NCBI RefSeq assembly: GCF_003790525.1
Contig: NZ_CP033635.1
Origin: Escherichia coli
Lineage (GTDB): Bacteria; Pseudomonadota; Gammaproteobacteria; Enterobacterales; Enterobacteriaceae
Strand: one strand, 5' to 3'
Length of the DNA stretch: 64,000 nt
The position numbers are program-made. Positions 42,701-48,700 of the stretch are shown here, piece by piece; position 1 is the stretch's first letter; each line of letters begins with the position of its first letter.

Positions 42701-45700
42701 GATCAAACCTTAAAAGTTGCCAAGCTGGCCTCAACGAAATATTACGACAATTTGCCCACCAGCGGAAACGAGCAAGGACAAGCATTCCGTGATATTGAGC
42801 TGGAAAAAGTATTGCTCGAGGCCAGTCAGCAATTTGGTATTGGTGCGCAATTTGGGGGTAAATATTTCGCTCATGATATTCGCGTCATTCGTCTGCCGCG
42901 TCACGGTGGCTCTTGCCCGATAGCTATGGCGCTCTCCTGTTCTGCGGATCGCAATATCAAAGCAAAAATTAACAAGCACGGTATCTGGCTGGAAAAACTC
43001 GAACACAATCCGGGGCAATATATTCCAGCCTCACTGCGGGAAGAAAATCACGCGCAACATGTACAGCTGGATCTAAACCGTCCGTTGCGTGACGTGATGC
43101 AGGATCTCGCCAGATTACCGGTAGGCACCCGCGTGTCGTTAAGTGGTCCCATCGTAGTGGCGCGCGATATCGCCCACGCCAAAATAAAAGCGCGGCTGGA
43201 TAGCGGCGAACCGATGCCGGATTACCTGAAGCATCATATTGTCTATTACGCTGGCCCGGCGAAAACACCGGAGAACATGGCCTGCGGTTCACTGGGTCCA
43301 ACCACGGGCGGTCGAATGGACGGTTATGTCGATACCTTCCAGGCGGCTGGCGGCAGTCTGGTGATGTTATCGAAAGGTAACCGCAGCCAGCAGGTCACCG
43401 ATGCCTGTCACAAACATGGCGGCTTCAATCTGGGGAGTATTGGCGGTGCAGCTGCGTTACTGGCGCAAGAATATGTCAAAAGTCTGCGTTGCCTGGAATA
43501 CCCGGAGCTGGGTATGGAAGCGGTGTGGATGATGGAAGTGGAAAATTTACCCGCATTCATCCTGGTAGATGATAAAGGCAATAATTTCTTTAGTCAGTTT
43601 GAGCAGCAACACCGCTGCGCCAGTTGCCCTGCGGGACATTAAGGAAAATGAATGGAAGCGCGAATTTCAACTGAACGGCATGTGCAGCGCCAGCAGAAAT
43701 TGAAGGAACAGGTCGATACGCGCGTCGCGGCGGCGATAGAGAAAAAAGGGATTTTGATTGTTTTCACCGGCAATGGCAAAGGGAAATCCACTGCCGCGTT
43801 TGGTACTGTGACGCGCGCGGTGGGTCATGGCAAAACGGTGGGGGTTGCGCAGTACATCAAGGGGCAATGGGACAACGGCGAATACAACCTTCTCCAGCCG
43901 CTGGGGGTTGAGTTTCATATTATGGGAACCGGTTTTACCTGGGAGACACAGAACCGGCAAGCGGATATCGACGCGGCGAAAGAGGTCTGGTCGGAAAGCA
44001 AACGGATGCTGGCTGACAAGCGTTACGACTTAGTGGTGCTTGATGAGCTGACCTATATGCTGGCTTACCATTATCTGGATACCGAAGAAGTGATCGCTTC
44101 TCTGCAAAACCGCCCGGCACAACAAAGTGTCATTGTCACCGGACGCGGTTGCCACAGTCAGATATTAAAAATGGCGGATACGGTCAGCGAAATCCGCCCC
44201 GTCAAACATGCTTTTGATAACGGCATTCAGGCCCAGCCGGGTATCGACTGGTAATAACTGCGCCTGGCATCCCGCCAGGCGCAGGTTTTACATCTCCTGC
44301 GGTACGACCGATTTCGCCAGCAACCATTCACGAAATTGCTGCAAGTGCGGTGAGTCAGACTTCTCTTCCTGCCACGTCATAATAAAACGATTACCGGTAC
44401 GAATAGGCACATCACAGGGAATCACCATATCGCCACTATCCAAATCATGTTGAATAGCGAACCGTGGTAACAGCGCCACGCCGAGATTAGAGCGCACGGC
44501 GGCAATCAGCATTGAAAGCAAATCGAAACGTGGTCCGTTATTGACCAGCGGACTGCTAACGCCAGATAAAGCAAACCACTCTTCCCAGCCAGTAATACGG
44601 GTGCTTTGATGCAGAAGTGGTAACTCAGTAAGCAGTTCTGCCACTGACAGTTTTTGATCGGACATTGCAAGCAAACTGCCGCTGCATACCGGCAAAATCT
44701 CCTCATCAAAGAGATATTCTACTTCCGCCCAGGGCGCGCAAAAATTTTCGCGCATAATGACAGCATCGTACTCCCGATTAAGAAAATCGCCGTTATTAGC
44801 TAAAGAATGAATATTAACAATAATATCGGGATGTAACTTTGTGAATTCATGTAAATTTGGGATTAACCAGTGGGTACTAAACGTAGGATTCACGGCAAGT
44901 TCAATAACCTGAACCGTAGGCTGCCAGGTCATAATGGTATTGGTATCGCGTTCCAGCTTATTTAATGTTTCTTTTACTATCCCCAGGTAATACTTCCCTG
45001 CATCATTAAGAAAAATGCGTTTTTTAGAGTGTGAAAATAACGGAGTATGTAAAAATTCCTCCAGCGCACTTACTTGTCTGAATACTGCACTTTGGGTTAA
45101 CGCTAACTCCTCTGCCGCTCTGGTATAACTTTCATGACGTGCGACGACCTCAAAAGTCACCAGCAGTTCCGTTTTAGGTATTTTTCCTCGCATAATGCCT
45201 TCCCTTAAAAATAGTTGAAACTATCAAAAAACCATTACTTATTGCTAAGTAATGGCAACCAAAGCAGCAATCAATATTTTATAAAAATCATGTTCGATAT
45301 TTATAACCTGGTAAGCCTGGCGTGACAATTGTCTTAATCAGATAATAATAATCCGAAAAGCACAGCACCTTTCGAATTATCAGGAATTACATTAAGTGAA
45401 AATTATTAAATTGATATCATTTATCATATCTGTGGATATTATGATAAACAATCAACATAGATTTTATTTTTGATTTATAGCATATCCCTCTAAGAATTTT
45501 TGCGATGCTTCAATATCCGGGGTAAAGACCCGATCCTGACTGACAAATGGCACGACTTGACGATAAGCGGTGAACATCGCTTTTGTTGATTTACTTAACG
45601 CTACGGTCAAACGCTGGGAAGCCAGTGCATCAGGTAACGATTCGAAATTCGCCGTCGTTCTTATTCGTGGCTTGCGGTCGGTCGCGGCAATCCACAGTGG

Positions 45701-48700
45701 CTGTGGTCATGCAGTCAAGCCTGCAGTCAGATTCCGACCGTGGTTAACGTTTAAGGCATAAAAAAGGCCATCATATGATGGCCAACCATGTCGAAACCGA
45801 CAGCCCTTCGCCATTCCTGTAGAGGGAAGCGGCGAGGGCTATTTCTTATTACAGATATTTATTTCAGAACAGTTTTCAGTGCTTCACCGATATCCGCCAG
45901 GCTGCGAACGGTTTTCACGCCTGCGGCTTCCAGAGCAGCAAATTTCTCATCCGCAGTCCCTTTCCCACCGGCAATGATGGCACCCGCGTGGCCCATACGT
46001 TTGCCTTTCGGCGCAGTCACACCAGCGATGTAACCCACAACAGGCTTGGTAACGTGCTCTTTGATGTACGCAGCCGCTTCTTCTTCAGCGCTACCGCCGA
46101 TCTCACCGATCATCACGATCGCTTCGGTCTGCGGATCTTTTTCGAACATTTCGAGGATGTCGATAAAGTTAGAGCCAGGGATCGGGTCGCCGCCGATACC
46201 AACACAGGTCGACTGACCGAAACCGTAATCCGTGGTCTGTTTAACCGCTTCATAGGTCAGTGTACCGGAACGGGAAACGATACCCACTTTACCCGGTTTG
46301 TGAATGTGACCAGGCTGGATACCGATTTTGCATTCACCCGGAGTGATAACGCCCGGGCAGTTCGGGCCGATCATGCGAACGCCCGCTTCATCCAGTTTCA
46401 CCTTCACGGTCAGCATATCCAGCGTCGGGATGCCTTCAGTGATGGTGATAATCAGTTTGATGCCTGCATCAATAGCTTCCAGAATGGAGTCTTTGCAGAA
46501 CGGTGCTGGTACGTAGATAACAGAAGCGGTAGCGCCAGTAGCAGCAACAGCTTCACGCACGGTGTTGAACACCGGCAGGCCGAGGTGGGTGGTGCCGCCT
46601 TTACCTGGGGTTACGCCGCCAACCATTTTAGTGCCGTATGCAATAGCCTGTTCTGAGTGGAAAGTCCCCTGGCTACCGGTAAAGCCCTGGCAGATAACCT
46701 TGGTGTTTTTATCAATTAAAATGGACATTATTTCCCCTCCACTGCGGCAACAACCTGCTGAGCTGCATCCGTCAGACCTTTTGCTGCAATAATATTCAGG
46801 CCGCTGTCAGCCAGTTTCTTCGCGCCGAGTTCGGCGTTGTTACCTTCCAGACGTACCACGACCGGTACGTTAACACCCACTTCCGCTACCGCGCCGATGA
46901 TACCGTCAGCGATCAGGTCGCAACGAACGATACCGCCGAAGATGTTAACCAGAACGGCTTTCACTTTGTCGTCAGAGAGGATGATTTTGAACGCTTCGGT
47001 TACGCGCTCTTTGGTTGCGCCGCCGCCAACGTCCAGGAAGTTAGCTGGTTCGCCGCCGTGCAGTTTAACGATGTCCATGGTGCCCATCGCCAGGCCTGCG
47101 CCGTTAACCATACAACCGATGTTACCGTCCAGCGCAACGTAGTTCAGTTCCCACTGTGCAGCCTGTGCTTCACGCGGATCTTCCTGCGACTGGTCACGCA
47201 TTTCGCGCAGATCAGGCTGGCGGAACAGTGCGTTGCCATCAGCGCCCAGTTTGCCGTCGAGGCAAATCAGATCGCCCTGTTTGGTGATGACCAGCGGGTT
47301 GATTTCGATCAGCGCCAGGTCGCGCTCCAGGAAAATGGTCGCCAGGCCCATGAAGATTTTGGTGAACTGCTGAACCAGTTTACCTTCCAGACCCAGTTTG
47401 AACGCCAGCTCGCGTCCCTGATACGGCATCGGGCCAGTCAGCGGATCAAGCGCAACTTTGTGGATCAGGTGCGGAGTTTCTTCCGCCACTTTTTCGATTT
47501 CCACGCCGCCTTCGGTGGAGGCCATAAAGACCACGCGACGTGAACTACGGTCTACAACGGCACCGAGATACAGCTCTTTAGCGATATCGGTCGCTGCTTC
47601 AACCAGAATCTGGTTAACCGGTTGGCCATTGGCATCTGTTTGATACGTTACCAGACGCTTGCCCAGCCAGTTTTCTGCAAAAGCACGGATGTCTTCTTTG
47701 CTGTTTACCACTTTCACACCGCCCGCTTTACCGCGGCCACCAGCGTGAACCTGACATTTCACTACCCACGGACCGGCACCGATTTTTGAAGCGGCTTCTT
47801 CTGCTTCGCGCGGAGTAGTACAGGCATAACCCACCGGTGCTGGTAAGCCATAGCGGGCAAAAAGTTGTTTTGCCTGATATTCATGTAAGTTCATGTGTTC
47901 TGTCCATCCTTCAGTAATCGTTATCTTTTAAACCGTAGACCGACACCCTATCCACGTCGGTCTACAGTGCAGGTGAAACTTAAACTACTACACGTCCAGC
48001 AGCAGACGCGTCGGATCTTCCAGCAACTCTTTGATCGTTACCAGGAAGCCCACGGATTCGCGACCATCGATCAGACGGTGATCGTAGGACAGCGCCAGGT
48101 ACATCATCGGCAGGATCTCAACCTGACCATTCACCGCCATCGGACGATCTTTGATAGCGTGCATACCCAGAATTGCGCTCTGCGGCGGGTTGATGATCGG
48201 CGTAGACATCAGGGAACCGAACACACCACCGTTGGTGATGGTGAAGTTACCACCGGTCAGATCTTCAACCGTCAGCTTGCCGTCACGGCCTTTAACTGCC
48301 AGCTCTTTAATTTTCTTCTCAATGTCTGCCATACCGAGGGTATCGACATCACGCAGTACCGGCGTCACCAGGCCGCGCGGCGTAGAAACCGCCATGCTGA
48401 CGTCGAAATAGTTGTGGTAAACCACGTCATCGCCGTCGATAGAAGCATTCACTTCCGGGTAACGTTTCAGGGCTTCAACCACCGCTTTCACGTAGAAGGA
48501 CATAAAGCCCAGACGGATGCCGTGGCGTTTTTCAAACGCTTCACCGTACTGCTTACGCAGATCCATAATCGGCTTCATGTTGACTTCGTTGAACGTGGTC
48601 AGCATGGCGGTGGAGTTTTTCGCTTCCAGCAGACGCTCTGCCACACGCTTACGCAGGCGAGTCATCGGCACACGTTTTTCGCTACGTGCAGCCAGGGCCG

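What the first reader, a model, noticed from the sequence alone, without database searches (positions are those of the whole stretch)
45480..45755. Short unexplained segment at the right island junction
Between the LysR upstream region and the sucD terminator there is about 270 bp of normal-GC DNA with no convincing ORF. The minus-strand translation gives only a short C-terminal-like peptide (...AMFTAYRQVVPFVSQDRVFTPDIEASQKFLEGYAINQK*). It may be the remnant of a gene truncated when the island was acquired, and it may help define the recombination junction.
Basis: seen in the sequence. Interest (0 to 1): 0.25.

Follow-up and report, generated by a model that had tools for sequence, protein, structure and literature searches.

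The report
Four-piece scar of deleted hut and rtcB genes
The roughly 290 bp between the LysR regulator and the sucD/SdhX terminator is non-functional debris: four short leftovers of a histidine ammonia-lyase gene and an RtcB RNA-ligase gene, remaining after about 15 kb was deleted. This is ordinary gene decay shared by about 15% of complete E. coli genomes.

Summary
The window is E. coli SMS-3-5. In detail: window 45464-45756 is unique, has normal GC and has no credible ORF. It lies between an AT-rich LysR upstream region and the SdhX/sucD terminator.

It is neither K-12 3'UTR nor a resident gene clipped when the island arrived. Strain RM14723 carries LysR, a HAL-family lyase, hutG, hutI, hutD, a permease, hutU, rtcB, mngB, mngA, mngR and sucD at this position. 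Against that arrangement the segment resolves into four collinear pieces:
- HAL, last 45 codons plus stop
- HAL, codons 378-397
- RtcB, codons 376-393
- RtcB, last 13 codons

Four deletions separate the pieces: 348 bp, about 9.08 kb, 173 bp and 5.61 kb. The same four-piece scar occurs in 834 of 5426 complete E. coli genomes, including O157:H7 and O55:H7. An intact hut-rtcB module occurs in about 145 genomes.

Homology to K-12-type genomes starts at 45756, directly at the SdhX terminator.

One mild surprise remains. The scar is 8-15% diverged from every intact allele (dS about 0.53, dN/dS about 0.11), while LysR next to it is 99-100% identical. So it descends from a much more divergent, once-functional version of the module.

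Nothing points to a present function. Interest is low.

The parts
44288..45193 (-). LysR-family regulator (the LTTR of the glutamate-fermentation/methylaspartate cluster). It forms the left flank of the scar.
   Evidence: ORF. Pfam HTH_1 plus LysR_substrate. Annotated in SMS-3-5. Cluster described in PMC4682846. It is 99-100% identical to the LysR of strains with an intact hut cluster.
45194..45463 (.). AT-rich (28.5% GC) intergenic region between the former HAL stop codon and the LysR start. It presumably holds the LysR promoter (inferred). In SMS-3-5 a haplotype switch lies at 45334/45335: 100% identical to RM14723 on the left, about 85% on the right.
   Evidence: In O157:H7 the divergent haplotype already starts at the LysR ATG.
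45464..45601 (-). Piece A: the last 45 codons plus the stop codon of a HAL/PAL/TAL-family (hutH-like) ammonia-lyase, aa 512-556 of the 556-aa protein.
   Evidence: Equals L008 3271-3408, 84.8% nt identity. Protein identity 40/46, E=1e-26. Parent gene is Pfam PF00221, E=8e-123.
45596..45657 (-). Piece B: internal HAL fragment, codons 378-397, in frame with piece A. The 6-bp TAACGC at 45596-45601 is shared with piece A and is the microhomology at the 348-bp in-frame deletion d1.
   Evidence: Equals L008 3751-3812, 87%. 18/20 aa identical. Junction shown. This piece alone is what 838 genomes retain of the HAL body.
45658..45660 (.). Three unmatched bases (TTC) at the junction of the roughly 9.08-kb deletion d2. 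That deletion removed the HAL 5' part, hutG, hutI, hutD, the permease, hutU and the 5' 1.1 kb of rtcB.
   Evidence: Junction alignment. Gene content.
45661..45717 (+). Piece C: internal RtcB-family fragment, codons 376-393 (YSWLAVG.GNP.WLWSCS). It ends just before the conserved HGAGR motif.
   Evidence: Equals L008 12896-12952, 91%. RtcB annotated under the match in other genomes. Parent gene is Pfam PF01139, E=3e-94. Motif context.
45718..45761 (+). Piece D: the last 13 codons of rtcB (PAVRFRPWLTFK, then a junction codon and stop). It follows the 173-bp deletion d3. The final codon and the stop were re-created by deletion d4 (5.61 kb, mngB-mngA-mngR), which changed ...TFKG* to ...TFKA*.
   Evidence: 45718-45756 equals L008 13126-13164, 92%. 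The same d4 junction is present in JBEHAAB-19-0176, Z30 and E. whittamii. The C-terminal Gly is conserved in solved RtcB structures.
45757..45858 (-). sucD 3'UTR, i.e. the SdhX sRNA: seed UUCGACAUGGU at 45785-45795, terminator hairpin 45766-45783, U-tract 45760-45765. This is the conserved core sequence. Every arrangement of the variable region diverges immediately beyond it.
   Evidence: Terminator scan. Seed and terminator as described in PMC6393394. K-12-type, B2-type and IS1-bearing genomes all share homology from 45756-45758 rightward.
45859..46728 (-). sucD (succinyl-CoA ligase alpha subunit). It forms the right flank.

Best explanation
Window 45464-45756 is a composite pseudogene scar with no present function. 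An ancestor of SMS-3-5 carried, between the LysR gene of the methylaspartate/glutamate-fermentation cluster and sucD, a histidine-utilisation cluster (HAL-family lyase, hutG, hutI, hutD, permease, hutU). Beyond it lay a stand-alone rtcB-family gene and mngB-mngA-mngR. This is the arrangement still seen in strain RM14723. Four deletions (348 bp, about 9.08 kb, 173 bp, 5.61 kb; about 15.2 kb in all) reduced 15.5 kb to 293 bp. What remains is two fragments of the lyase gene on the minus strand and two fragments of rtcB on the plus strand.

Shown: the homology, order and strand of the four pieces; the junction sequences; the distribution of the scar among genomes.

Inferred: that the mng genes were lost rather than never present; that the deletions arose by illegitimate or microhomology-mediated recombination; that the DNA is now inert, serving only as a spacer between the sdh-suc terminator and the LysR promoter.
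For: (1) The window is 100% identical to E. coli SMS-3-5.

(2) Against RM14723 (L008) the pieces map collinearly: 45100-45601 = 2907-3408; 45596-45657 = 3751-3812; 45661-45717 = 12896-12952; 45718-45756 = 13126-13164; 45756-45900 = 18774-18918.

(3) At protein level the remnants match HAL aa 378-397 and 511-556 (E=5e-9 and 1e-26) and RtcB aa 376-393 and 453-465. The parent genes are PF00221 and PF01139.

(4) Synteny holds. In JBEHAAB-19-0176, RM14723 and Z30 the intact lyase gene sits exactly 270 bp from the same LysR gene, and rtcB sits on the sucD side.

(5) All five scars aligned have identical junctions. The full scar is present in 834 of 5426 genomes, a full-length HAL in 145, and 838 genomes retain only the 62-bp piece B.

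(6) There is no coding constraint now. 1-bp indels differ between scar-bearing strains, and ORFs in the region are 63 aa or shorter and frame-inconsistent.

(7) There is no RNA signal. Folding z-scores are +0.15 and -0.15, Rfam gives no hit, and promoter-like sites are at chance level.

(8) Independent, different deletions of the same module occur in LHM10-1 and in E. whittamii. Loss of this module is therefore recurrent.
Against: No E. coli genome among the 5426 shows an intermediate state, such as a scar-type allele with only some of the deletions. The order of the four deletions is therefore unknown. Four separate events are inferred from structure alone; one complex rearrangement cannot be excluded.

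The scar is 8-15% diverged from every intact allele available, so no sequenced intact gene is its direct parent.

Absence of function is argued from negative computational evidence only. No expression data were examined.
Confidence: 0.93

Rival explanations
1. The segment is the stump of a resident chromosomal gene, for example mngR, the gene next to sucD in K-12. It would have been cut when the methylaspartate island inserted, so it marks an integration junction.
For: The segment lies at the edge of the region absent from K-12-type genomes (31788-45755). In K-12-type genomes mngR ends exactly where homology to the window begins.
Against: No part of the segment matches mngR or any K-12-type sequence. 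The K-12-type locus L017 matches the window only at 27887-31787 and from 45756 onward. All four pieces match HAL and rtcB, which are part of the variable region and are intact beside the same LysR gene in other strains. There is no integrase or tRNA at the junction, and no flanking direct repeats beyond AT-rich 9-10-mers.
Confidence: 0.02
2. The segment encodes something functional today: a small protein (the 48-aa or 63-aa ORF, or the 84-aa ORF that PGAP calls in some strains), or an sRNA or cis-regulatory element retained by selection.
For: The scar keeps identical junctions at 97-100% identity in 834 genomes. PGAP annotates an 84-aa hypothetical protein (WP_001309348.1) across it in some genomes. 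Related short ORFs are present in nr. It also lies downstream of the strongly expressed sdh-suc operon and upstream of LysR, so read-through transcripts could cross it (inference).
Against: The ORF length differs between strains (48 aa in SMS-3-5, 84 aa in CFSAN061770), and 1-bp indels occur in O157 and in CFSAN018748. The 84-aa ORF is a fusion of in-frame HAL remnants with the antisense of rtcB remnants. Predicted folding is no better than shuffled sequence. Rfam gives no hit. Promoter-like sites are at the chance level. Identical junctions are expected from common descent alone.
Confidence: 0.04
3. The segment is simply an extended sucD 3'UTR/SdhX region.
For: It directly adjoins the SdhX terminator.
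Against: The SdhX seed, hairpin and U-tract lie at 45760-45795 on the minus strand. Homology to K-12-type genomes stops at 45756. The segment therefore lies beyond the terminator.
Confidence: 0.01

Closest known systems
Bacterial pseudogene remnants / deletion scars at variable chromosomal hot spots (deletional bias in bacterial genome decay)
   Same: Short collinear fragments of formerly intact genes. They have lost start codons and catalytic motifs, carry indels that differ between strains, and are inherited by descent in a large clade. Junctions show either short microhomology (TAAYGC at d1) or none.
   Different: It is unusually composite for its size: four fragments of two convergent genes in 293 bp. 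It is also much more diverged (dS about 0.5) from every intact allele in the species than its flanks are.
hut (histidine utilisation) cluster with a HAL/PAL/TAL-family lyase (Pfam PF00221), as annotated in E. coli RM14723, JBEHAAB-19-0176, Z30 and ST648
   Same: Pieces A and B are homologous to, and syntenic with, the 3' third of the lyase gene of this cluster.
   Different: Only 65 of 556 codons remain. The rest of the lyase, hutG, hutI, hutD, the permease and hutU are gone. It cannot encode an enzyme.
RtcB-family RNA ligase (Pfam PF01139), the stand-alone copy next to the hut cluster
   Same: Pieces C and D are homologous to, and syntenic with, codons 376-393 and 453-465 of this gene.
   Different: Only about 31 of 465 codons remain, the two pieces are out of frame with each other, and the HGAGR motif is deleted.
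SdhX (RybD), the 3'UTR-derived sRNA of sdhCDAB-sucABCD (PMC6393394)
   Same: It is the immediate neighbour, and its terminator forms the fixed right-hand boundary of the variable region.
   Different: The segment lies entirely beyond the SdhX terminator and shares no sequence with the K-12 3'UTR.
Glutamate-fermentation (methylaspartate pathway) cluster with FumD, CobA and an LTTR in E. coli O157:H7 (Kronen and Berg 2015, PMC4682846)
   Same: The scar sits just beyond its LysR-type regulator.
   Different: A term search of that paper found no mention of histidine or sucD. The scar is not part of the functional cluster.

Membership tests
HAL/PAL/TAL aromatic amino acid lyase gene (PF00221): remnant versus functional member | Significant sequence homology to a family member | tested here: met
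   BLASTP against RM14723 HAL: 40/46 identical (E=1e-26) and 18/20 identical (E=5e-9). Nucleotide identity 85-87%.
HAL/PAL/TAL aromatic amino acid lyase gene (PF00221): remnant versus functional member | Same genomic position as the intact gene (270 bp from the LysR gene, same strand) | tested here: met
   The alignment is contiguous from LysR into the HAL 3' end.
HAL/PAL/TAL aromatic amino acid lyase gene (PF00221): remnant versus functional member | Full-length ORF covering the lyase domain (profile positions 1-466, aa 34-526) | tested here: not met
   Only codons 378-397 and 512-556 remain. The Pfam scan of the 64-aa remnant returns no family. It is therefore a pseudogene remnant, not a functional member.
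RtcB RNA ligase gene (PF01139): remnant versus functional member | Sequence homology and synteny with an intact family member | tested here: met
   45661-45717 and 45718-45756 match rtcB of RM14723 at 91-92%, 16/18 and 12/13 aa. RtcB is annotated under the match in other genomes.
RtcB RNA ligase gene (PF01139): remnant versus functional member | Intact ORF including the conserved HGAGR active-site region | tested here: not met
   Piece C stops at ...WSCS, immediately before HGAGR. Pieces C and D are in different frames.
SdhX / sucD 3'UTR | Lies between the sucD stop codon and the Rho-independent terminator, and aligns to the K-12 3'UTR | tested here: not met
   Terminator at 45760-45783, seed at 45785-45795. 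K-12-type homology ends at 45756. Rfam gives no hit in 44000-47000.
mngR (GntR/UTRA repressor) remnant | Sequence homology to mngR, the K-12 neighbour of sucD | tested here: not met
   The K-12-type locus L017, which contains mngR, matches the window only outside 31788-45755.
Integrative island junction (att site) | Flanking direct repeats, an integrase or a tRNA target at the junctions | tested here: not met
   No shared direct or inverted repeat of 11 bp or more between the left (31650-32150) and right (45420-45830) junction regions. No integrase or tRNA is annotated in the region.
Structured non-coding RNA | Folding energy better than shuffled controls, or a match to a curated family | tested here: not met
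   z = +0.15 (minus strand) and -0.15 (plus strand). No Rfam match.

The most novel reading that the evidence does not exclude
The scar is not a decayed copy of the hut-rtcB module that survives intact in about 145 E. coli genomes. It descends from a separate, once-functional version about as divergent as a different species (dS about 0.53, dN/dS about 0.11 over 95 codons), while the adjoining LysR gene is 99-100% identical. On this reading the cydA-sucD hot spot has held two separately derived versions of the same module: either two acquisitions or replacements by homologous recombination from different donors, or a very old polymorphism. One version was then destroyed in the lineage leading to O157:H7, O55:H7, SMS-3-5 and others. 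No intact scar-type allele was found in 5426 E. coli genomes or, by one degenerate-pattern scan, in GTDB species representatives.
Probability: 0.45. Interest if true: 0.3.

Novelty: new member of a known kind. Interest (0 to 1): 0.13.

Why it matters
The practical value is mostly in annotation. The result explains an unannotated or inconsistently annotated stretch in about 15% of complete E. coli genomes, O157:H7 included. Depending on the record, that stretch is left blank, called an 84-aa 'hypothetical protein', or called a 48-aa 'histidine ammonia-lyase'.

It fixes the right-hand boundary of the cydA-sucD variable region at the SdhX terminator (45756/45757). It shows that the methylaspartate cluster was once linked to a histidine-utilisation cluster, an rtcB gene and the mng genes. 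It also gives a simple marker, four fixed junctions, for the lineage that lost histidine catabolism.

The strong divergence of the scar from all intact alleles is a small population-genetic curiosity about recombination at this hot spot. It is not a new biological mechanism.

Tried and rejected
(1) Rfam scan of 44000-47000 at a permissive E-value gave no hit at all, not even SdhX. SdhX was therefore placed from the published seed and terminator and the terminator scan.

(2) RNA folding of both strands of the scar gave z-scores near 0. A structured RNA was rejected.

(3) Promoter scan: two promoter-like sites in 45100-45900 against 2.3 expected. Uninformative.

(4) Search for the scar's parent allele. 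A degenerate codon pattern (VVPFVxQDRVFTPDI) over GTDB species representatives returned three loci. These were a 'Citrobacter sp.' MAG that is 97.7% identical to the RM14723 E. coli allele, E. whittamii with its own independent scar of the RM14723-type allele, and an unrelated Pseudonocardia hit. None is close to the scar.

(5) Protein search with the 64-aa remnant over 5.8 billion proteins returned only short scar-derived ORFs. No full-length relative was closer than the E. coli alleles. The search also failed to list the known full-length HAL proteins, so this negative is weak.

(6) Search for intermediates with fewer deletions found none in 5426 genomes.

(7) Flanking direct repeats (att-like) were not found.

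(8) mngR-remnant idea: rejected for lack of any homology.

(9) Literature searches for this hut cluster or scar in E. coli found nothing specific. Only the methylaspartate cluster and SdhX papers bear on the locus.

(10) A metagenome scan for an intact scar-type allele was considered but not run, because it was peripheral to the finding and costly.
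Full report
**Identity of the window and check of the observation.** Megablast of 45300-45900 finds a 100% match to Escherichia coli SMS-3-5 (NC_010498.1), and every complete E. coli genome but one matches at least the sucD end. In the window, sucD is on the minus strand (45859..46728) and a LysR-family gene is on the minus strand at 44288..45193. Between them lie three elements:
- an AT-rich stretch, 45194-45463, 28.5% GC
- the reported segment, 45480-45755, 49.6% GC; its natural limits are 45464-45756
- the sucD 3'UTR

Only short ORFs overlap the segment.

**What aligns and what does not.** K-12-type genomes have mngR next to sucD. They share sequence with the window only from 45756 rightward, that is, from the base after the mngR stop codon. 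B2-type genomes such as F11 have a TPR-protein gene next to sucD and share sequence from 45758.

The published SdhX seed UUCGACAUGGU lies at 45785-45795 on the minus strand. It is followed by the hairpin at 45766-45783 and the U-tract at 45760-45765. Relative to K-12-type genomes the variable region spans 31788-45755. Most of it is the known glutamate-fermentation (methylaspartate) cluster with FumD, CobA and an LTTR (PMC4682846; annotation).

**The segment is a four-piece scar.** A minority of E. coli genomes carry more genes between the same LysR gene and sucD. In RM14723 the order is LysR, HAL/PAL/TAL-family lyase, hutG, hutI, hutD, permease, hutU, rtcB-family gene, mngB, mngA, mngR, sucD. 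JBEHAAB-19-0176 and Z30 have the same arrangement without the mng genes.

Against RM14723 (locus L008) the window aligns collinearly as follows:

| Window | L008 | Content |
|---|---|---|
| 45100-45601 | 2907-3408 | includes the last 138 nt of HAL |
| 45596-45657 | 3751-3812 | HAL codons 378-397 |
| 45661-45717 | 12896-12952 | RtcB codons 376-393 |
| 45718-45756 | 13126-13164 | last 13 RtcB codons |
| 45756-45900 | 18774-18918 | sequence after the mngR stop |

Protein-level comparison confirms this. HAL is 40/46 and 18/20 identical (E=1e-26 and 5e-9). RtcB is 16/18 and 12/13 identical. The parent proteins are clear PF00221 and PF01139 members.

**The deletions**:
- d1 is 348 bp, in frame, between TAAYGC 6-mers.
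- d2 is about 9.08 kb, with three unmatched bases (TTC, 45658-45660) at the junction.
- d3 is 173 bp.
- d4 is 5,610 bp and removes mngB, mngA and mngR.

Together they cut 15.5 kb down to 293 bp.

The d4 junction (AAGG|CATAAAA) is also present in JBEHAAB-19-0176, Z30 and E. whittamii, where rtcB or its 3' end abuts the SdhX terminator. It changes the RtcB terminus from ...TFKG* to ...TFKA*. The C-terminal Gly is conserved in solved RtcB homologues. I therefore infer that d4 is a deletion from an RM14723-like arrangement rather than a later insertion of mng. This polarity is an inference.

**Distribution.** The complete scar (at least 80% of 45335-45756, one piece) is in 834 of 5426 genomes at 96.9-100% identity, including O157:H7 and O55:H7. 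Five aligned scars have identical junctions but differ by point changes and 1-bp indels. A full-length HAL is present in 145 genomes, at 94.7-100% identity to RM14723. A further 838 genomes retain only the 62-bp piece B. No intermediate was seen.

Other lineages lost the module independently and differently. LHM10-1 lacks hut but keeps rtcB and mng. E. whittamii keeps 315 bp of HAL, a hutU fragment and about 100 bp of rtcB. Loss of this module is therefore recurrent, as expected for dispensable catabolic genes.

**No sign of present function.**
- The ORFs are short, differ in length between strains, and mix HAL frames with the antisense of rtcB.
- Folding energies equal those of shuffled sequence.
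- Rfam finds nothing.
- Promoter-like matches are at chance level.
- The segment is single-copy in the window, and the variable region has no flanking repeats.

My working model is that the segment is inert spacer DNA between the sdh-suc/SdhX terminator and the LysR promoter region. Any transcription across it would be terminator read-through. That last point is inference and was not tested.

**The one unexpected feature.** LysR and the genes to its left are 98-100% identical between SMS-3-5, O157:H7, RM14723 and JBEHAAB-19-0176. Identity of the scar haplotype to the intact strains drops abruptly to about 85-92%. The drop occurs at 45334/45335 in SMS-3-5 and at the LysR ATG in O157:H7.

The 37 differences in the 95 alignable codons fall 8/4/25 on codon positions 1/2/3 (chi-square p=4e-5). 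By the Nei-Gojobori method this gives dS=0.53, dN=0.057 and dN/dS=0.11. Most of this divergence therefore accumulated while the genes were under purifying selection, not during decay.

The three intact E. coli alleles examined are all about equally far from the scar. The E. whittamii remnant is 95% identical to RM14723 over 535 bp but 87-88% identical to the scar in piece A. The scar thus descends from a markedly different, once-functional version of the module. I could not find an intact copy of that version. Whether this reflects two acquisitions or replacements at the hot spot, or an old polymorphism, is open.

**Comparison with what is known, and verdict.** This is a textbook deletion scar and pseudogene remnant at a variable chromosomal site. 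The neighbouring elements, the methylaspartate cluster (PMC4682846) and SdhX (PMC6393394), are described. Public records already label the 48-aa ORF 'histidine ammonia-lyase' or call an 84-aa 'hypothetical protein' across the scar. My literature searches found no description of the four-piece structure or the rtcB fragments.

There are two genes, four fragments and internal deletions, not truncation on island entry. Interest is low (0.13). Novelty is 'new member of a known kind'.

Noticed in passing
window 45231-45256: An 11-bp-arm inverted repeat (ACCATTACTTA-TTGC-TAAGTAATGGT on the plus strand; the last arm pair is G-T) lies about 40 bp upstream of the LysR start. The scan flagged it as terminator-like on the minus strand. 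The arms are nearly conserved and the loop differs in O157-type scars. It could be the old HAL/hut terminator or an LTTR autoregulatory box.
   Followed up: no
window 45334/45335: SMS-3-5 is 100% identical to RM14723 (intact-hut type) up to 45334 and switches to the divergent scar haplotype from 45335. In O157:H7 the divergent haplotype already begins at the LysR ATG (45194). This implies a recombination breakpoint inside the 270-bp intergenic region in the SMS-3-5 lineage.
   Followed up: partly
L012 1-900 (Escherichia whittamii NZ_JACSQI010000018.1): A sister species carries its own, differently structured scar at the same place: 315 bp of the HAL 3' end, a 133-bp hutU fragment and about 100 bp of the rtcB 3' end. 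It has the same rtcB/SdhX junction as E. coli.
   Followed up: partly
L006 5248-5945 (FDAARGOS_944); L015 1-252 (strain MEW): IS1 elements have inserted at or next to this junction in other strains. In FDAARGOS_944 the IS1 lies between mngR and the SdhX terminator. In MEW it replaces the LysR side up to about window 45200. The spot beside the terminator therefore looks like a recurrent target.
   Followed up: no
L014 530-784 (CFSAN061770); proteins P0001, P0003, P0004: Annotation of the scar is inconsistent across public records. Some leave it blank, some call an 84-aa 'hypothetical protein' (WP_001309348.1), and some-64-aa 'histidine ammonia-lyase' fragments. A 37-aa fragment is annotated in Shigella dysenteriae.
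   Followed up: partly
L008 11012-13169 (RM14723): A stand-alone 465-aa RtcB-family gene, with no rtcA or rtcR annotated beside it, sits next to the hut cluster. It is preceded by about 760 bp with no annotated gene between hutU and rtcB. No hutC-type repressor is annotated in the cluster.
   Followed up: no
window about 21700-22300: The tRNA-Lys/tRNA-Val array between nadA and cpoB aligns with multiple offset repeats to JBEHAAB-19-0176. This suggests a difference in tRNA gene copy number between the two strains.
   Followed up: no
L005 4747-5862 (strain F11); window 31788-32052: F11-type genomes (which I recall as phylogroup B2; not checked here) carry a TPR-repeat protein gene instead of mng or the methylaspartate cluster between cydA and sucD. 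Their left homology to the window extends about 265 bp further (to 32052) than that of K-12-type genomes (31787). The region therefore has at least six distinct arrangements.
   Followed up: no
L011 (DXKH01000067.1, MAG labelled 'Citrobacter sp.'): The LysR-HAL region of this MAG is 97.7% identical to E. coli RM14723 over 2.1 kb. This points either to a mis-assigned or contaminated bin or to very recent transfer.
   Followed up: no
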